This document shows, one piece after another, positions 2,590-23,510 of a stretch of 24,296 bases of DNA. Source of the DNA: a virus; IMG/VR virus record IMGVR_UViG_3300037245_003526, positions 1 through 24,296 of that record; one strand, written 5' to 3'. The notes below the pieces were generated by a model, which saw only the letters and a program-made list of their open reading frames with translations, did no database searches and was not told where the DNA came from. Position 1 is the stretch's first letter; each line of letters opens with the position of its first letter. The position numbers and the translations under genes are program-made.

Positions 2590-5139
2590 ATGACTGACAA
2601 TACAGTATCTTCAGAAATATACCAAAGTCGAGATGCTACTAGAGATAAAATTATTGAACTTCTTCAGCGATACTTGGAGTTAGGTAATGTAGACTTGACA
2701 AAAACATCATTCCTATCATATGTTACGGATGTTATGTCTATACTTTCCTCAAATCTTATGTTTTACCAAGGTAATGTTTATAGAGAATTCTTTATGACAA
2801 AAGCTCAATTACCAGAGTCTATTTATAACTTAAGTTCTTTTATAGGTTATACTCCATCAGAAGCAAGTTATTCCTCTACAAATCTTCTTATAACAGTACC
2901 TCTACCTTTCAATGATACAAATATAACTTTTTCAATAGCAGATGGAAGAGATGGTAATTTTAAATTTCAAACATCCGATGGTATTAAATTTCTAACATAT
3001 TATACAACAACCGTAACTGTAATAAATAATAGTGATGTTACTATACAAATTGATCAAGATGGTAAACTTTATACCTTACCTGTTTATATTGATACAACTT
3101 CTGCTGATCAACAGTTTCAATTTGTACTACCTGTAAGACAATATAAAAGTACAAGATCTGAATTTATTATTGATCCTGATCTTCAACCAAATCAGTTTAC
3201 CAATATTGATGTTCCTATAGATGGTAAAGTTGCTGAAATGTCGGTGTATGTTAGGAACCCTGGAAGTGATGTAGACACCCTTGGTATGTTGTACGATGGC
3301 TCTTTTGATAGTCTATATTTAATGACTTCCTCTGATTATGGATATGTATCAAGAAACATATCTGAAGGTAAAAGATTATATTTTGGTAATGGAGTTATAG
3401 GACAACAACCTCTTCCTGGTTCTACAGTAATTGTATTCACTGACATAACAGAAGGGGAATCAGGTAACGTTATAGCTGGTTCTGTAACAACAGGTAGTAG
3501 AATATATACAATGGCTGGTGGTGCTTCAACAATAGTAAATTACACAGTAACAAATACTTCTCCTGCTACAGGTGGTAGTGATGAAGAGTCACTACAGGAA
3601 ATAAAACAAAATTCTATAGATAGTTTAACATCTCTAAATAGATTAGTTTCTGAAGGTGATTATGGTCATGTAAAAACTATAATTGAGGATGCTCCTATAG
3701 CTGAAAATTCTATAGCAGTATTAAAAAGATCTGATCTTAAAGTTAATGAAATTCAGTTATTCACTATTCTTAATTTCAATAATGAAATAGTTCCAACCAG
3801 AAATATATATTATTCAGTTCCCACTGGTACTACAGTAATTCCAAGAGATACTGTAATTACATTTGATGGAGTTGAATACATTACTATATTTGATATAGAA
3901 ATATCATCACTAAATACATATGCTGACTATGAATATAATCTACTACAACTACAAATTACACCTCTTTTAATACAAAGTTGGAGTAGTGCAAATCAAGATG
4001 CTTATAACTTTAACTCAAATGAATTATTAGTATCATATAATGATGCATCTGCAACTGTAACTTTTGAATTTTCATATTTTTCAGATGAAATAGATCGTAC
4101 TAATTGTTCTTGTGATTTAACAATTCTTTCTACAGATGATACTCGTGCTATGACAAATACTGCAAATGCAAATGGAGGAGTTTTTTCATACACATTTCCA
4201 AATTATACTGATATCCCGAAGGGAAGTCAGACGTATTATCTTACTGTAAGTAATTCAAACTTACCGATTCAACAATTAATATCACGATATTCTGCTTCCT
4301 TTATATTAAGACAGGATTTATCACCATTATATATGATGTCAAATACAGCGAATGATGGTACTACAACCATCATATATGATATACCAGGAATTAAAAAATC
4401 CTACTATGATAGTATTGATAAAATAGATTTTGAATCTGCTGTTATACAAGAATTTTTATCATCTATGGATTTAAAAGATTATAGAATGATGACTGATTTC
4501 ACTAATCTTAAATTCTGTAGTACTACTGGTAAGATGAATAATATGCTTTTAAATAAGAATAATAAGTTAGCAGTAAAAGACATGGGTTTAACTAGTATTC
4601 CTACATCTTTAACTACTGGGGACAGATATATTATAAGTGGTAATGAAGGAGGTACATGGACTGGTCATAGAGATGATATAGCAATTTGTACAGATTCTAC
4701 TGCTTCAACATGGACTTTTATAATGCCAAATGCTAATGATATTACATACGTTCAAAGTAAGAGTTCAAATTATATCTATACACAATATGGATGGAAAATA
4801 CCTCAATATGATATTCCTTTACAAATATCTATAGAACTATTTAGAATTCTTGATTCATCAATTACCGACGTTTCTTTAGTATATAATATACAAGCTGCTT
4901 TAGTTTCAGCATTTTCTAGTAGATTTGGTCCAAATTTAACTATTTATAGAACAGAAATAATAGAAGTTATTCAAGGAGTGACTGGGGTTTCCCATTGTAG
5001 ATTAATAGAACCAGAAAGTAGTGTTTTCTTTAATTTTGATCTTTTAGATTTTACAGAACAACAATTACTTGAATATGGTCCTGAATGGGTATATTTTGAA
5101 ATTGATGATATTACAATAAAAGTTCTTCCTGCGGAGTAG
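2590..5139 (+). CDS. baseplate J / T4 gp6-like baseplate wedge protein
   Basis: 849 aa. The internal motif SPATGGSDEESLQEIKQNS resembles the conserved GG.D.Es.e.lR segment of baseplate-J family proteins. Size and position after the gp25-like gene fit. Confidence 0.7.
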   Translation: MTDNTVSSEIYQSRDATRDKIIELLQRYLELGNVDLTKTSFLSYVTDVMSILSSNLMFYQGNVYREFFMTKAQLPESIYNLSSFIGYTPSEASYSSTNLLITVPLPFNDTNITFSIADGRDGNFKFQTSDGIKFLTYYTTTVTVINNSDVTIQIDQDGKLYTLPVYIDTTSADQQFQFVLPVRQYKSTRSEFIIDPDLQPNQFTNIDVPIDGKVAEMSVYVRNPGSDVDTLGMLYDGSFDSLYLMTSSDYGYVSRNISEGKRLYFGNGVIGQQPLPGSTVIVFTDITEGESGNVIAGSVTTGSRIYTMAGGASTIVNYTVTNTSPATGGSDEESLQEIKQNSIDSLTSLNRLVSEGDYGHVKTIIEDAPIAENSIAVLKRSDLKVNEIQLFTILNFNNEIVPTRNIYYSVPTGTTVIPRDTVITFDGVEYITIFDIEISSLNTYADYEYNLLQLQITPLLIQSWSSANQDAYNFNSNELLVSYNDASATVTFEFSYFSDEIDRTNCSCDLTILSTDDTRAMTNTANANGGVFSYTFPNYTDIPKGSQTYYLTVSNSNLPIQQLISRYSASFILRQDLSPLYMMSNTANDGTTTIIYDIPGIKKSYYDSIDKIDFESAVIQEFLSSMDLKDYRMMTDFTNLKFCSTTGKMNNMLLNKNNKLAVKDMGLTSIPTSLTTGDRYIISGNEGGTWTGHRDDIAICTDSTASTWTFIMPNANDITYVQSKSSNYIYTQYGWKIPQYDIPLQISIELFRILDSSITDVSLVYNIQAALVSAFSSRFGPNLTIYRTEIIEVIQGVTGVSHCRLIEPESSVFFNFDLLDFTEQQLLEYGPEWVYFEIDDITIKVLPAE

Positions 5140-10642: not shown

Positions 10643-11586
10643 TATCTAATCCCTCCAAAAGCTTTGTAAATATTTGACATCTTTCCTGGATTAACAAGTT
10701 CTGAATACATACAAATTACTTCACTTGGATAAATTAATTCTTGAATGCATAAGCTTTTATCATTTTTAACTTTTAAACCTTCTTTATATGCGTCCTTCAT
10801 AGGTCTATATATTTGTATAAAATTTCGTATTGAAGAAATAAATCCATCTAAATTTATAAAATATAATTTAATCATAGTCATATATTGTATTAATAATTCC
10901 TGAAATTTATCAAACTCTAAACCAGTTCTGTTATTAAATAATCTAACTAATAAGTCTGTGTATTTTGTAATTGATGAATTTAAACTACCTACTGATGTAT
11001 TTTTATATTCAAATTCCTTAAATAAAAATGAATAAAAAATTTTCACTTCTTTATTAATATCCCCTGAAATATCGAACAATTTCTTAAAAAATGTTGAATA
11101 ATATAACGTTAATTCTTTGTCAAATATTCTTTGATATCTTTTCTTCAAGTGCGTAGAAGCCATATGCATAGATTCATGTACTAAAAGTCCAGCTAATAAT
11201 TTATTAGATGCAAAACCAAAAGACATATTATTATCCATTAATAAAAATATTTGATCTGCTTTTGTTGTATAAAATCCCATTATACTTTTAGAACCCATAG
11301 GAGCAAAAATCTTAAATATTGATAAAGAAAATATTCCTTTATTTAACCATGCTGGAACCACTTTATTATTATCTACAAGACTTCTAATTTTGTCTGAAAT
11401 TTTATTAGTTCTTTTATCTTTTACCATAGCTAAACAAAAACGATCTTTAAGACCTTGAGATGTGTATATTTTCATTCCATCTATATTAGCTACATGATAT
11501 GTATTCCAAGGAACAGTCCATATCTCCTCGATATATTGTTTATTACAATTATCAATAAACTCTTTGGTTAAAACATTATCATTCAT
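10642..11586 (-). CDS. putative Zn-metallopeptidase-like protein (HExxH motif)
   Basis: 314 aa. LLVHESMHMASTH contains HESMH, an HExxH motif. The stop overlaps the tape-measure GTG start (TAGTG), indicating translational coupling. Confidence 0.5.
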   Translation of the reverse strand: MNDNVLTKEFIDNCNKQYIEEIWTVPWNTYHVANIDGMKIYTSQGLKDRFCLAMVKDKRTNKISDKIRSLVDNNKVVPAWLNKGIFSLSIFKIFAPMGSKSIMGFYTTKADQIFLLMDNNMSFGFASNKLLAGLLVHESMHMASTHLKKRYQRIFDKELTLYYSTFFKKLFDISGDINKEVKIFYSFLFKEFEYKNTSVGSLNSSITKYTDLLVRLFNNRTGLEFDKFQELLIQYMTMIKLYFINLDGFISSIRNFIQIYRPMKDAYKEGLKVKNDKSLCIQELIYPSEVICMYSELVNPGKMSNIYKAFGGIR

Positions 11587-22238: not shown

Positions 22239-22268
22239 GGGGGCAGATCCTAGCCTGGACCCACCCCC
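22239..22268 (-). other. GC-rich RNA hairpin between tRNA-Ile and the next ORF
   Basis: The minus strand reads GGGGGTGGGTCC-AGGCTA-GGATCTGCCCCC, a 12-bp stem including 3 G:U pairs. Those pairs become A/C mismatches on the plus strand, so the fold is strand-specific. No clear U tract follows (AUUAUUCC). Confidence 0.6.
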
Positions 22269-22279
22269 TCTCTTAGTAT

Positions 22280-22352
22280 TCATAACAATGGGAATCGAAC
22301 CCATGTTCTCATGTTTATCAGACATGTGCTTAACCAATTAAGCTATGTTATA
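22280..22352 (-). tRNA. tRNA-Ile (anticodon GAT)
   Basis: Cloverleaf drawn by eye. Acceptor TATAACA/TGTTATG (U1:G72 wobble), D-arm GCTT-AATTGGTT-AAGC, anticodon arm CATGT-CTGATAA-ACATG, variable AGAAC, T-arm ATGGG-TTCGATT-CCCAT, discriminator A. CCA is not encoded. Confidence 0.9.
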
Positions 22353-22353
22353 T

Positions 22354-22461
22354 TGGTGCAGTTACGTTAATAACCGCAGGGTTACATCAAAAATGCTTTT
22401 CATTGAGTACCAATCTAAATATGACAAATATCCCTTTGCTCTACCGCTGAGCTACACGCCA
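22354..22461 (-). ncRNA. tRNA-like RNA: canonical tRNA 5' acceptor strand and D-arm, then non-tRNA sequence ending in a 7-bp hairpin plus ACCA
   Basis: The minus strand from 22461 reads TGGCGTG TA GCTC AGCGGTA GAGC A AAGGG... No T-arm and no matching acceptor 3' strand follow. The RNA ends GCGGTTA-TTAACG-TAACTGC-ACCA (22377->22354), 1 nt before the tRNA-Ile 5' end. Confidence 0.5.
22402..22413. repeat. direct repeat copy 1 (ATTGAGTACCAA)
   Basis: 11/12 identical to 22554-22565. On the minus strand it contains a D-loop-like TTGGTAC box that starts exactly 60 nt before the encoded CCA end at 22354. Confidence 0.7.
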
Positions 22462-22471
22462 GTAATTAAAA

Positions 22472-22499
22472 AATTATATAAACTTTAATTTATATAATT
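22472..22499 (-). other. A/T-only perfect 11-bp hairpin in the linker between tRNA 3' and 5' fragments
   Basis: AATTATATAAA-(6 nt)-TTTATATAATT. On the minus strand it is followed by TTTTAATTAC and then the acceptor 5' strand. Confidence 0.7.
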
Positions 22500-22505
22500 A
22501 TGTAA

Positions 22506-22533
22506 TGGCTGGCGTGACGGGATTTGAACCCGT
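22506..22533 (-). ncRNA. tRNA 3' fragment: T-arm, acceptor 3' strand, discriminator G and encoded CCA
   Basis: The minus strand reads ACGGG-TTCAAAT-CCCGT CACGCCA G CCA. No complementary acceptor 5' strand or D-arm lies upstream of it. Its complement, TGGCGTG, lies 44 nt downstream instead. Confidence 0.6.
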
Positions 22534-22553
22534 GCATAGAGAAAAATTATATG

Positions 22554-22565
22554 ATTAAGTACCAA
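22554..22565. repeat. direct repeat copy 2 (ATTAAGTACCAA)
   Basis: 11/12 identical to 22402-22413, offset 152 bp. The minus-strand TTGGTAC box starts exactly 60 nt before the encoded CCA end at 22506. Confidence 0.7.
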
Positions 22566-22634
22566 CTATTGGGCAACAATGCATTTATAAGCTTGTTGGT
22601 TCGTAATTTAAAATAAGGATAATCTATCTGTGGA

Positions 22635-22652
22635 TCCAACATAATTGTTGGA
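22635..22652 (-). other. 7-bp perfect hairpin (TCCAACA-TAAT-TGTTGGA) in the non-coding leader upstream of the tRNA fragments
   Basis: Exact inverted repeat. It is enclosed by a longer-range complementary pair TTGGTTC (22596-22602) / GAACCAA (22684-22690). Each of those heptamers sits next to a copy of TATAAGCTTG. Confidence 0.5.
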
Positions 22653-22721
22653 CAGAAATAATGAGGAATATAAGTATAAGCTTGAACCAATTTCAATAAT
22701 ATGTTCTCATCAATTAAGTAA

Positions 22722-23510
22722 TTATCCCTTAATTGCGCCATGTATGTAACTAAATATTTCTTTACCAACCTGACGAGATTCAACTTCAGTTCCATTTGCT
22801 CTTTGCCTTGACCTCTTTATTGCTCGAGCAAGTTTATCAATCCTGGCAAGAATTGCTGATTTCTGAGATGGGGAAACCATACCGCACCATCTGTGTGTTG
22901 AATATTCACCAATTGCACTATTCTCAACCCACTCTTTTATCTGGGCAGGATGATGATCAGTGGCATCGTACATAACCTTACTTTGCTGAGTTTTTTCAGT
23001 TTTCTGATCCTTAACCATATTATCATCCTGAAATACTCCTTCACCAATATCAGGAGCTTCTACCCATTTTATTCCAGGAGGAAGTGTAGGAATCTTGCTA
23101 TAAACATCCCTGAGTGTACTCAACTCATACTCCATTTCAAGAAGAAATGTAACTGGAACATTTTCTGCTATTGTAATTCCATCCACAGCTATGTCCGATT
23201 TAGCAAGACAGTTTCCACTTTCCTTTTGAAGCTTGGCATCCCAGAATTTTATGAAGCTCTCGGACATATAGTCAAGTTTATCCTGAACTGTTGTGGTGAT
23301 TTCCTGATGTTCTTCAGTATTCTCTTTTTGTCTGGCATCATCAAACATCCTTAAACTACGATGCTGACCATGAAAATGAGAGACTCTCTTTAAAAATGTT
23401 TGCTCAGTCTCAGTTTTGATTTTTTCTTTTGCTCCTTTGAGACTTCCTACCACTGCCAAAATTTCGTGTAAAACTGGTTTTTTCTTAGACATTTTAAATT
23501 TTCCTTTCAT
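22722..23510 (-). CDS. hypothetical protein (262 aa), higher GC than neighbours
   Basis: Uninterrupted ORF. The first ATG has no SD. An alternative start at 23492 (MSKKKP) lies 9 nt after AAAGGA. No motif I can name. Confidence 0.75.
   Translation of the reverse strand: MKGKFKMSKKKPVLHEILAVVGSLKGAKEKIKTETEQTFLKRVSHFHGQHRSLRMFDDARQKENTEEHQEITTTVQDKLDYMSESFIKFWDAKLQKESGNCLAKSDIAVDGITIAENVPVTFLLEMEYELSTLRDVYSKIPTLPPGIKWVEAPDIGEGVFQDDNMVKDQKTEKTQQSKVMYDATDHHPAQIKEWVENSAIGEYSTHRWCGMVSPSQKSAILARIDKLARAIKRSRQRANGTEVESRQVGKEIFSYIHGAIKG

What the first reader, a model, noticed from the sequence alone, without database searches (positions are those of the whole stretch)
22402..22565. An 11/12 direct repeat with a 152-bp offset brackets the permuted tRNA unit, each copy exactly 60 nt from an encoded CCA
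ATTGAGTACCAA (22402-22413) and ATTAAGTACCAA (22554-22565) flank the 3'-half/linker/5'-half unit. On the minus strand each copy contains a D-loop-like TTGGTAC box that begins exactly 60 nt before a CCA end (22506 and 22354). That is close to the G18-to-A76 distance of a tRNA. A second short box, TCATAT, lies on opposite sides of the repeat in the two copies, as expected for a circular permutation. Three readings fit. The repeat could be the crossover or att-like core of a small circular intermediate. It could be a target-site duplication of a 140-bp insertion. Or the locus could be two tandem tRNA-sized units that decayed. Recombination between the repeats would give a 152-nt circle that reads as a colinear tRNA with an extended anticodon arm.
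Basis: seen in the sequence. Interest (0 to 1): 0.5.

Follow-up and report, generated by a model that had tools for sequence, protein, structure and literature searches.

The report
Helix arms of a phage tRNA-mimic
The two "repeat" copies are the paired strands of a stem that closes a ~200-nt phage RNA built like a tRNA with its halves in swapped order; this RNA sits next to one uncharacterised gene (DUF7873) in many phages and is not annotated in any record or library checked.

Summary
The repeat is real: 11/12 identity, 152-nt offset. But 11/12 repeats this close are common in this AT-rich window (74 seen, ~47 expected), and the copies are not recombination sites.

On the minus strand, 5'-UUGGUACU (22565-22558) pairs with GGUAC(U)CAA-3' (22411-22403). 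This stem closes a conserved non-coding RNA. Its core is a tRNA in permuted order: T arm, acceptor 3' strand, G73-CCA, a 44-nt linker, acceptor 5' strand, D arm.

A covariance model finds this RNA on the same strand downstream of the DUF7873 gene in 72 of 75 sources, then 16 of 19 more, including cultured Vibrio, Klebsiella, Rhizobium and Gordonia phages. All 24 modelled base pairs covary. Across 51 relatives the two 12-mers share a median of 4/12 bases, yet the stem keeps 7-8 of 8 pairs.

The nearest known family is the Ro60-associated Y-RNA-like YrlA. Rfam scores are 30-49 bits against a cut-off of 69. No Ro60 gene or Ro60-binding motif was found, and N73-CCA is encoded in 67 of 76 copies.

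Best reading: a tRNA-mimic RNA, probably partnered with DUF7873 and probably cut by RNase P. This is a new variant of a known kind. The att-site, target-duplication and decayed-tandem readings are not supported.

The parts
22722..23510 (-). DUF7873 gene (PF25283), the invariably linked upstream gene and candidate protein partner
   Evidence: Pfam E = 6.6e-70. There are 63 homologues. The RNA lies downstream on the same strand in 72/75 and 16/19 sources. The AlphaFold model has pLDDT 90 and no informative structural neighbour.
22667..22696 (-). Sigma-70-like promoter match (TTGAAA-18-TATATT) between the DUF7873 stop and the RNA; weak evidence only
   Evidence: 10/12 match, but 2 sites found against 3.4 expected in shuffles.
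22574..22598 (-). 5' hairpin H1 (CAACAAGC / GC.AUUGUUG, loop UUAUAAAU); family-wide counterpart has stem TTGNCC/GGNCAA and loop CnnCAGCTTTA just after the DUF7873 stop
   Evidence: Present in the unconstrained MFE fold. The motif is seen in most 5' flanks. It was read by eye and not formally counted.
22558..22565 (-).
   Evidence: 8 pairs, all with changes on both sides: 87% paired on the MAFFT alignment and 90% on the CM alignment; for the whole 24-pair structure, slid controls give 36-47%. Also formed in the MFE fold.
22543..22557 (-). Inner 5' strand with AAUC and the first TCATAT box; pairs imperfectly with 22412-22432
   Evidence: MFE fold. The Rfam YrlA alignment pairs AUAUAA with UCAUAU. 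L082 keeps GAAU/AUUC pairing without the TCATAT repeat.
22534..22542 (-). Anticodon-stem-like 3' strand (UCUC, 22542-22539) and variable loop (UAUGC, 22538-22534)
   Evidence: A 4-5 bp stem with compensatory changes is visible across relatives. It is weak in the window (3 of 4 pairs).
22517..22533 (-). T arm ACGGG-UUCAAAU-CCCGU
   Evidence: 99.7% of cells paired across 76 copies.
22506..22516 (-). Acceptor 3' strand CACGCCA (22516-22510), discriminator G73 (22509) and encoded CCA (22508-22506)
   Evidence: Acceptor stem 99.1% paired, with all 7 pairs showing changes on both sides. N73-CCA is present in 67/76 copies.
22462..22505 (-). 44-nt AU-rich linker closing the acceptor stem; contains a 12-bp hairpin. 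Predicted to be removed by RNase P and 3' trimming (inferred)
   Evidence: Fold. Linker length is 7-147 nt in relatives, and the base before the acceptor 5' strand is U in 41/76.
22455..22461 (-). Acceptor 5' strand UGGCGUG
22438..22452 (-). D arm GCUC-AGCGGUA-GAGC
   Evidence: 98.7% paired across 76 copies.
22412..22437 (-). Anticodon-stem-like 5' strand (AAGG, 22436-22433), an open anticodon-loop-like stretch, and the inner 3' strand with the second TCATAT box
   Evidence: Relatives carry a semi-conserved UAUUAG...UGA stretch here.
22403..22411 (-).
   Evidence: The bulged base is U in 44/51 relatives.
22396..22402 (-). Conserved 3' motif UGAAAAG (family consensus YGAAAG) directly after the closing helix
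22280..22352 (-). Ordinary tRNA-Ile(GAU) following the element; many relatives also have a tRNA here
   Evidence: ARAGORN and Rfam 68.4 bits. tRNAs follow the RNA in many loci.

Best explanation
The two 12-mers are the two strands of the stem that closes a ~200-nt structured non-coding RNA on the minus strand (about 22600-22390). They are not a DNA repeat with a function of its own.

The RNA core is a complete tRNA-like body in circularly permuted order. It runs anticodon-stem 3' strand, variable loop, T arm, acceptor 3' strand, G73-CCA, a 44-nt linker, acceptor 5' strand, D arm, anticodon-stem 5' strand. So the acceptor end is closed and the anticodon end is open. The open end continues into an imperfect helix, then into the conserved closing helix UUGGUACU / GGUAC(U)CAA. 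That helix has a bulged U and conserved flanks: AGUAR-like on the 5' side and YGAAAG on the 3' side.

The copies look alike because the helix is built around self-complementary GUAC, between conserved UUGGUA and UAC-U-CAA. This topology matches bacterial and phage Y-RNA-like YrlA tRNA mimics.

Inferred, not shown:
- The RNA is made from the DUF7873/tRNA transcription unit.
- DUF7873, always encoded just upstream, binds the conserved bulged stem, as Ro60 binds the bulged terminal stem of Y RNAs.
- The tRNA-like module engages host tRNA enzymes.
- RNase P cuts before the acceptor 5' strand and 3' trimming exposes the encoded CCA. This would give a two-piece RNA with a tRNA-type end, as reported for M. 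smegmatis YrlA.
For: Structure, shown:
- On a MAFFT alignment of 24 relatives, the closing, T, acceptor and D helices are 87-99% paired. 22 of 24 pairs change on both sides, and slid controls give 36-46%.
- On 76 covariance-model hits, 96.5% of cells are paired and all 24 pairs covary.
- An unconstrained MFE fold of 22610-22385 gives the same helices, with z = -3.5.

Repeat versus helix:
- In 51 relatives the 12-mers share a median of 4/12 bases, but the helix keeps 7-8 of 8 pairs in 41. The bulge is U in 44.
- L082 (70% identical DUF7873) has 6/12 direct identity with pairing kept through a G-C to G-U change.

Linkage:
- One hit lies downstream of DUF7873 on the same strand in 72/75 sources and 16/19 further sources.
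- There is a single copy in the window, at 118 bits.
- In an independent pattern scan, none of 103 ordinary tandem-tRNA junctions had DUF7873.

Similarity to YrlA:
- Matches to Rfam RF02553, full-length in all but one (L036), score 33.4 bits for the window and 30-49 bits for 12 relatives.
- In L114, two units of the same permuted layout (found by R1 and by YrlA sub-threshold matches) follow a helical+vWA protein and score similarly, 32-37 bits.

tRNA-type end:
- The acceptor stem is 7 bp. N73-CCA is present in 67/76 copies, and U precedes the 5' strand in 41/76.
Against: - No expression, end-mapping or binding data exist. Every step after 'conserved structure linked to DUF7873' is inference.
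- Rfam YrlA scores are well below the gathering score (33 versus 69 bits).
- The Ro60-binding GNCGAAN0-1G motif is absent from the 5' strand, and no TROVE/Ro60 gene was found. Membership of the Y RNA family in the strict sense is therefore not established.
- The DUF7873 model matches no known RNA-binding fold. Gene adjacency alone does not prove a complex.
- The anticodon-like stem is weak in the window itself (3 of 4 pairs).
- Alignment A3 was fitted to the model, so its counts lean towards the structure. A2 was not fitted.
Confidence: 0.75

Rival explanations
1. It is a genuine permuted or two-piece tRNA-type adaptor. One route is that the ends are cut and ligated, for example by RtcB or another RNA ligase, through a circular intermediate into a colinear tRNA, as in Cyanidioschyzon merolae. 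The other is that the RNase P-processed two-piece molecule is aminoacylated and used, as with two-piece tmRNA.
For: - The tRNA body is complete: 7-bp acceptor, D arm, 4-5 bp anticodon-like stem, AGGUC-type variable loop and T arm.
- N73-CCA is encoded in 67/76 copies, with leader-like linkers ending in U.
- The break lies just 3' of an anticodon-loop-like 7-mer, the canonical intron position.
- In L082 that 7-mer reads AUGUUUG (GUU). Acceptor U1:A72 with G73 resembles tRNA-Asn as I recall it (the tRNA-Asn comparison is from my own knowledge).
- RtcB lies 5 kb upstream in one relative, L087.
Against: - There is no bulge-helix-bulge motif and no splicing endonuclease. RtcB is absent from the window's close relatives.
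- The anticodon-like stretch is a semi-conserved UAUUAG motif, not a varied set of anticodons.
- The closing helix, bulged U and flanking motifs are more conserved than a discarded intron-like segment should be.
- ARAGORN and the Rfam tRNA and tmRNA models do not call it.
- There is no G3:U70 pair. No tag reading frame was noticed, though none was specifically searched for.
- Five copies lack CCA and have a long closed acceptor hairpin instead.
Confidence: 0.1
2. It is a cis-acting processing or stability element of the DUF7873/tRNA operon. A tRNA-shaped 3' UTR would recruit RNase P or RNase E to define and protect the DUF7873 mRNA 3' end and release the downstream tRNA. It would have no function of its own in trans.
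For: - It always lies directly downstream of DUF7873 on the same strand and inside tRNA clusters.
- The linkers look like tRNA trailer and leader sequence.
- A conserved hairpin follows the stop codon.
Against: - A simple tRNA or hairpin would do that job.
- The conserved bulged closing helix, the AGUAR/YGAAAG flanks and the permuted order held across phages of Actinobacteria, Proteobacteria and Cyanobacteria go beyond what a processing signal needs.
- The same topology occurs after an unrelated helical+vWA gene in L114.
Confidence: 0.1
3. One reading: the 12-mers are an att-like crossover core of a small circle, or a target-site duplication of a ~140-bp insertion.
For: An 11/12 direct repeat brackets the unit exactly.
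Against: - 11/12 repeats at this spacing are at chance frequency (74 versus ~47).
- The repeat is lost in relatives while complementarity is kept.
- The unit is present at the same position in 72/75 and 16/19 DUF7873 sources from unrelated phages.
- No integrase or transposase was found among the window ORFs scanned.
Confidence: 0.02
4. Two tandem tRNA genes that decayed, leaving non-functional halves.
For: The layout (3' half, spacer, 5' half) is what a tandem duplication followed by loss of the outer halves would leave. Tandem tRNA junctions are very common in phage contigs (103 of 130 pattern matches).
Against: - The acceptor strands of the two halves are complementary and covary (99.1% paired, all 7 pairs with double changes). 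Ordinary tandem junctions are not complementary.
- The flanks are conserved and paired.
- This may be the ancient origin but not the present state.
Confidence: 0.03

Closest known systems
YrlA / Y RNA-like RNAs (Rfam RF02553; Chen et al. 2014, PMC4201824)
   Same: - The topology is the same. The 5' and 3' ends form a long bulged stem. The other end is a tRNA-like domain read as T arm, closed acceptor stem, D arm.
- It is the only Rfam family with consistent matches (30-49 bits; full-length in all but L036) across the family.
- M. smegmatis YrlA is cut by RNase P and receives CCA.
- YrlA-like RNAs also occur in phages.
   Different: - Scores are below the gathering score of 69 bits.
- No Ro60/TROVE gene was found within 4 kb, in the window, or within +/-10 kb in 4 relatives.
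- There is no GNCGAAN0-1G motif on the 5' strand. Instead a YGAAAG sits on the 3' strand, outside a helix with a bulged U.
- The acceptor stem is a full 7 bp with encoded N73-CCA and linkers of 7-147 nt.
- The linked gene is DUF7873.
Phage Ro60-Yrl ribonucleoproteins (Thermus phage phiLo, PMC12135203)
   Same: A phage-encoded structured RNA lies next to its phage-encoded protein partner. The stem-bulge-stem module is proposed as the protein-binding site.
   Different: The partner there is a Ro60 ring protein and the RNAs carry the CGAA motif. Here the neighbour is DUF7873, which shows no detectable similarity to the one helical+vWA protein it was compared with. It was not compared with Ro60/TROVE itself.
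Permuted tRNA genes of Cyanidioschyzon merolae (Soma et al. 2007; from my own knowledge)
   Same: The 3' half is encoded upstream of the 5' half. The acceptor ends are joined by an intervening sequence, and the break lies next to the anticodon loop.
   Different: Those are eukaryotic and matured by the splicing endonuclease at a bulge-helix-bulge motif, through a circular RNA, into a working tRNA. Here there is no BHB motif, no such enzyme and no evidence of a colinear product. The flanks are conserved as if functional.
Two-piece (circularly permuted) tmRNA of alpha-proteobacteria and cyanobacteria (Keiler et al. 2000; from my own knowledge)
   Same: The gene is permuted, with the T arm, acceptor 3' strand and CCA upstream of the acceptor 5' strand. 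An intervening segment is excised to give two base-paired pieces with a tRNA-type CCA end.
   Different: - Rfam tmRNA_permuted scores 15.5 bits against a cut-off of 47, and ARAGORN finds no tmRNA.
- The D arm is canonical.
- The third acceptor pair is G3:C70, not G3:U70.
- No tag reading frame or pseudoknots were noticed.

Membership tests
YrlA (Rfam RF02553, Y RNA-like) | Reaches the Rfam gathering score (69 bits) | tested here: not met
   The window scores 33.4 bits (E = 1.6e-5, full-length). None of 20 relatives reaches it; they score 32-49 bits. Two YrlA-like units next to a helical+vWA protein in L114 also score only 32-37 bits, so the cut-off is conservative for phage copies.
YrlA (Rfam RF02553, Y RNA-like) | tRNA-like domain in the order T arm, closed acceptor stem, D arm, with the RNA ends forming a stem | tested here: met
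YrlA (Rfam RF02553, Y RNA-like) | Encoded within about 4 kb of, and on the same strand as, a Ro60 (TROVE) gene (criterion of Chen et al. 2014) | tested here: not met
   No TROVE hit in 20 window ORFs scanned with Pfam, which include every ORF of 300 aa or more except the ligase. None within +/-10 kb in L082, L083, L087, L088 or L089. Complete genomes were not scanned, so a distant or host Ro60 is not excluded.
YrlA (Rfam RF02553, Y RNA-like) | GNCGAAN0-1G Ro60-binding motif on the 5' strand of the terminal stem | tested here: not met
   The window's 5' strand reads CAAUAGUUGGUACUUAAUCAUAUAA, with no such motif. A YGAAAG motif lies on the 3' strand instead.
YrlA (Rfam RF02553, Y RNA-like) | Bound by Ro60 in vivo | not testable with these tools
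   Needs co-immunoprecipitation.
Permuted tRNA gene (C. merolae type) | 3' half upstream of 5' half, with complementary acceptor strands | tested here: met
Permuted tRNA gene (C. merolae type) | Leader and trailer form a bulge-helix-bulge motif at the junction | tested here: not met
   The closing helix has one single-base bulge (U in 44/51). The pattern of 3-nt bulge, 4 bp, 3-nt bulge is absent.
Permuted tRNA gene (C. merolae type) | Circular intermediate and a colinear mature tRNA | not testable with these tools
   Needs circular RT-PCR or RNA-seq.
Two-piece tmRNA | Recognised by tmRNA models; G3:U70 pair; tag reading frame | tested here: not met
   ARAGORN finds none. tmRNA_permuted scores 15.5 bits against 47. 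The third acceptor pair is G3:C70. No tag reading frame was noticed on reading the sequence; none was searched for.
Canonical tRNA gene | Colinear cloverleaf called by ARAGORN or Rfam tRNA | tested here: not met
   Only tRNA-Ile at 22280-22352 is called. The permuted units are not called in relatives.
att core or target-site duplication | Direct repeat conserved at element boundaries; empty sites or junctions; recombinase nearby | tested here: not met
   Median 4/12 identity in relatives. Chance frequency. The element is present in 72/75 and 16/19 sources searched. No integrase was found in the ORFs scanned.

The most novel reading that the evidence does not exclude
These would be the first permuted tRNA-type genes in bacteriophages. 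After RNase P and 3' processing, the RNA is a two-piece, CCA-ended, possibly aminoacylated adaptor. Alternatively it is ligated into a colinear tRNA. DUF7873 would be its dedicated processing or loading factor, giving phages a tRNA-based activity beyond the normal decoding set.
Probability: 0.1. Interest if true: 0.9.

Novelty: new variant of a known kind. Interest (0 to 1): 0.6.

Why it matters
tRNA-mimicking Y-like RNAs have so far been found by looking next to Ro60 genes; Chen et al. searched only TROVE-containing genomes. This element suggests the same RNA design is used without a nearby Ro60 gene. It is tied instead to an uncharacterised protein family, DUF7873, found in at least 70 cultured phage records of Vibrio, Klebsiella/Serratia, Rhizobium, Ralstonia, Gordonia, Arthrobacter and cyanobacteria, and in many metagenomic phages.

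The RNA was unannotated in the four cultured-phage records read. In one of them (Klebsiella phage FBKp24) it probably underlies a doubtful suppressor-tRNA call.

The conserved encoded CCA and tRNA-like linker make a clear, testable prediction: RNase P cleavage to a two-piece RNA. Because cultured carriers exist, the RNA-protein pairing and its role can be tested directly. Possible roles are hijacking tRNA enzymes or exoribonucleases, or acting as a decoy against tRNA-directed defences.

Tried and rejected
- BLASTN of the locus against cultured phages found only generic tRNA similarity.
- An exact 26-mer of the 3' half found nothing in IMG/VR.
- The downstream ORF has no relatives in IMG/VR.
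- I tested whether RtcB is generally linked. It lies near DUF7873 in L087 only; the 377-aa protein of L083 is not RtcB.
- I tested whether the L114 helical+vWA protein is a recognisable Ro60. There is no TROVE Pfam hit and no PDB sequence hit, so I call it Ro60-like in domain layout only. It is unrelated to DUF7873.
- A sigma-70 promoter reading of TTGGTA...TATAAT inside the repeat was rejected, because the spacing is 8 nt. The scan's promoter matches are at chance level.
- A terminator reading of the linker hairpin was rejected. Most relatives have linkers of 10-20 nt, and the scan finds no terminator.
- The Microcoleus phage record is partial, so it could not serve as a whole-genome test for absence of Ro60.
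- Literature searches for DUF7873, DUF2828, permuted tRNA in phages and tRNA-like phage RNAs found no description of this element.
Full report
**1. The observation.** The window is a ~31% GC phage fragment. It carries a large terminase, baseplate genes and a DNA ligase. On the minus strand each TTGGTAC starts 60 nt before a CCA.

Between the copies, the minus strand reads as follows:
- T arm ACGGG-UUCAAAU-CCCGU
- acceptor 3' strand CACGCCA, then G73 and CCA (ending at 22506)
- a 44-nt AU-rich linker
- acceptor 5' strand UGGCGUG
- D arm GCUC-AGCGGUA-GAGC

ARAGORN and Rfam call only the ordinary tRNA-Ile(GAU) just downstream, at 22352-22280. So the description is accurate.

As a repeat, however, it is not remarkable. 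The window contains 74 direct 11/12 pairs within 300 nt, against about 47 in dinucleotide-preserving shuffles. The second CCA (gcaCCAata) is not a tRNA end.

**2. What it is.** The gene directly upstream (22722-23510, minus strand) belongs to Pfam DUF7873 (E = 7e-70).
- The first distant relative found through this gene (L001, 41% identity, much higher GC) has the same permuted layout right after its DUF7873 gene.
- With an alignment of 31 homologues I fetched 80 viral loci.
- Most carry, 50-500 nt downstream on the same strand, a T arm, a 7-nt acceptor 3' strand, N73-CCA, a linker, a complementary 7-nt acceptor 5' strand and a D arm. ARAGORN does not call any of them.
- A covariance model built from 24 of them finds one hit downstream of DUF7873, on the same strand, in 72 of 75 sources.
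- It finds the same in 16 of 19 further sources, from MAG contigs and other metagenomic assemblies.
- The window has a single copy: 22583-22380, minus strand, 118 bits.
- DUF7873 occurs in 70 cultured phage records, including Vibrio, Rhizobium, Klebsiella/Serratia, Gordonia, Arthrobacter, Ralstonia phiRSL1 and cyanophages.
- In the three complete cultured-phage records whose DNA I read and searched, the RNA is there but unannotated. In two (Rhizobium RHph_TM30, Gordonia Phendrix) the gene sits inside a tRNA cluster; in Klebsiella FBKp24 only one doubtful tRNA call is nearby.

**3. The repeat explained.** The 5' copy and the 3' copy are the two strands of one helix. UUGGUACU (22565-22558) pairs with GGUAC(U)CAA (22411-22403), leaving U22406 bulged.
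- On a MAFFT alignment that I did not fit to any structure, this 8-bp closing helix is 87% paired, and all 8 pairs show changes on both sides. The acceptor, T and D helices are 97-99% paired. Sliding the partners by 1-3 columns drops pairing for the whole 24-pair structure to 36-46%.
- On the 76 model hits, 96.5% of cells are paired and all 24 pairs covary.
- An unconstrained MFE fold of 22610-22385 gives the same helices, plus a 5' hairpin (z = -3.5).
- The two strands look alike because the helix is built around self-complementary GUAC, between the family's conserved UUGGUA (5' strand) and UAC-U-CAA (3' strand).
- In relatives the likeness vanishes while pairing stays. L082 (70% identical DUF7873) has TTGGTACC / CTGGTATTCAA, which is 6/12 direct identity with pairing kept through a G-C to G-U change. 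It has no CCA 60 nt after the second copy.
- Over 51 full-length members the 12-mers share a median of 4/12 bases. Only the window and its 99% relative L083 reach 11/12. Yet 41 keep 7-8 of 8 helix pairs, and the bulged base is U in 44.
- The TCATAT boxes are likewise the two strands of the next, imperfect helix. AUAU is self-complementary. Both the MFE fold and the Rfam alignment pair them.
- The first 60-nt distance is just the length of closing helix, inner strand, T arm, acceptor strand and G73-CCA.

**4. Anatomy.** Reading 5' to 3' on the minus strand:
- a hairpin just after the DUF7873 stop; its loop motif recurs across the family (CnnCAGCTTTA; AAGCTTATA in the window)
- an AGUAR-like stretch
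- the closing helix 5' strand
- an inner strand
- a 4-5 bp anticodon-like stem strand
- an AGGUC-type variable loop
- the T arm
- the acceptor stem, closed by N73-CCA and the linker
- the D arm
- the anticodon-like stem 5' strand
- an open, anticodon-loop-like stretch, semi-conserved as UAUUAG...UGA
- the inner strand
- the closing helix 3' strand with the bulged U
- the YGAAAG motif

The RNA is therefore a tRNA whose acceptor end is closed and whose anticodon end is open and extended. N73-CCA is encoded in 67 of 76 copies (N73: U 32, G 25, A 14, C 5). The base before the acceptor 5' strand is U in 41 of 76. Linkers range from 7 to 147 nt. Five copies that lack CCA instead extend the acceptor stem into a long closed hairpin.

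**5. Comparison with known families.** The only Rfam family that matches is YrlA (RF02553), the Ro60-associated Y-RNA-like tRNA mimic. The matches are full-length in all but one locus (L036) but below threshold: 33.4 bits for the window, 30.1 for L001, and 32-49 for 11 of 12 other loci, against a gathering score of 69. None of 20 members reaches any gathering score at this site.

YrlA has the same topology, and M. smegmatis YrlA is cleaved by RNase P and receives CCA (PMC4201824). But the features that define a Y RNA are not met:
- No TROVE/Ro60 gene is found in the window or within +/-10 kb of five relatives.
- The GNCGAAN0-1G motif is absent from the 5' strand.

Chen et al. searched only TROVE-containing genomes, so Ro60-less relatives would have been missed by design.

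An independent pattern scan of viral contigs was informative.
- 103 of 130 matches were ordinary tandem tRNA junctions with non-complementary acceptor strands, and none had DUF7873.
- Of the five matches with fully complementary (7/7) acceptor strands, L105 and L207 had DUF7873 upstream.
- One (L193) shows an ordinary colinear tRNA after its D arm and had too little upstream sequence to judge. One (L196) had no large neighbouring ORF.
- One (L114) lay downstream of a 484-aa DUF2828+vWA protein, together with a second YrlA-like match in the same locus. That protein has the helical+vWA layout of Ro60, though I could not show TROVE homology. It is unrelated to DUF7873.

DUF7873 thus occupies the genomic position that a Ro60-like gene occupies elsewhere. 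Permuted tRNA genes of C. merolae and two-piece tmRNA share the permuted gene order. Their other defining features (BHB motif; tmRNA models, G3:U70, tag ORF) are not met.

**6. Mechanism.**
- Shown: a conserved, covarying structure, and near-obligate linkage to DUF7873.
- Inferred: the RNA is transcribed with the DUF7873/tRNA cluster. DUF7873 binds the conserved bulged closing helix and its flanks, as Ro60 binds the bulged terminal stem of Y RNAs. The tRNA-like module recruits host tRNA enzymes. The 7-bp acceptor, N73-CCA, U at -1 and AU-rich linker predict RNase P cleavage and 3' trimming to a two-piece RNA.
- The DUF7873 model is confident (pLDDT 90) but matches no known fold or family, so its activity is unknown.

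**7. Rivals.**
- A true permuted or two-piece tRNA adaptor is not excluded (about 0.1). The conserved flanks, the semi-conserved UAUUAG stretch and the lack of BHB or ligase linkage argue against it.
- A purely cis-acting processing element is possible (about 0.1).

**8. Verdict.** The underlying object is a widespread phage RNA family that I found unannotated in the cultured-phage records I read. It is a YrlA-like tRNA mimic with an encoded CCA, linked to DUF7873 instead of Ro60. That makes it a new variant of a known kind, and it can be tested in cultured phages.

Noticed in passing
window 22280-22352 (-); L083 10229-10300; L082 ~11178-11249: The tRNA after the element keeps its body but changes its anticodon loop between close relatives. 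The window has CUGAUAA (GAU, Ile). The 99%-identical L083 has CUACAAA (ACA). L082 has a 6-nt loop, UUUGGU. This looks like anticodon switching or decay in a phage tRNA.
   Followed up: partly
window ~22239-22268 (-): A strong hairpin follows tRNA-Ile (GGGGUGGGUCC-aggcua-GGAUCUGCCCC). It is conserved in L082 with a compensatory change (GGACC/GGUUC) and the same AGGCUA loop. There is no U-run, so it is not a classic terminator.
   Followed up: partly
window 22574-22598 (-) and the 5' flanks of most L002-L081 units: A hairpin lies right after the DUF7873 stop codon, with a conserved loop motif (CnnCAGCTTTA; stem TTGNCC/GGNCAA with covariation such as ATGCC/GGCAT). In Klebsiella phage FBKp24 a 'promoter' is annotated in the equivalent stretch just after the DUF7873 stop (L086 3293-3324); I did not check whether it carries this motif. 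Its role is unknown: operator, promoter or part of the RNA.
   Followed up: partly
L086 3509-3588 (Klebsiella phage vB_KpM_FBKp24, NC_061421.1): The annotated 'tRNA-Sup-TTA' overlaps the 3' half of a permuted unit (model hit at 3544-3662). A second permuted unit with a class-II-type D arm lies at ~3355-3425. The suppressor tRNA call is probably an artefact of the permuted RNA.
   Followed up: partly
L085 566-1094 (Gordonia phage Phendrix, NC_070764.1): Rfam finds a full-length tmRNA (89 bits) in a stretch with no annotated feature, between tRNA-Asn and tRNA-Arg. The same phage has two tandem permuted units (3366-3449 and 3518-3592), each with only a 7-nt N-CCA-NNN loop.
   Followed up: no
L114 4644-6098 and 6323-6933: A 484-aa DUF2828+DUF7788/vWA protein (helical+vWA, the domain layout of Ro60) is followed by two YrlA-like RNAs, inside a cluster of more than 20 tRNAs. 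This is probably a phage Ro60-like/Y RNA module that Pfam TROVE does not detect.
   Followed up: partly
window 22547-22795 (-): This 82-aa ORF overlaps the end of DUF7873, the 5' hairpin and the closing helix. It has no family hit and is probably spurious.
   Followed up: partly
L082 3278-4132 and 8612-9610; L083 1916-2770 and 6322-7341; L087 4738-5862: Close relatives carry FolE2-type GTP cyclohydrolase I and a radical-SAM gene a few kb upstream of DUF7873, possibly for 7-deazaguanine synthesis. L087 has RtcB there instead. L082 also encodes an RNA polymerase beta-like subunit.
   Followed up: no
L049 3572-3666, L067, L071, L086 ~3355-3425: Some permuted units have class-II-type D arms (UGGCGGAAUUGGUAGACGC) instead of the usual UAGCUCAGUGGUAGAGC. 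So the permuted design has been built on, or converted to, different tRNA bodies.
   Followed up: no
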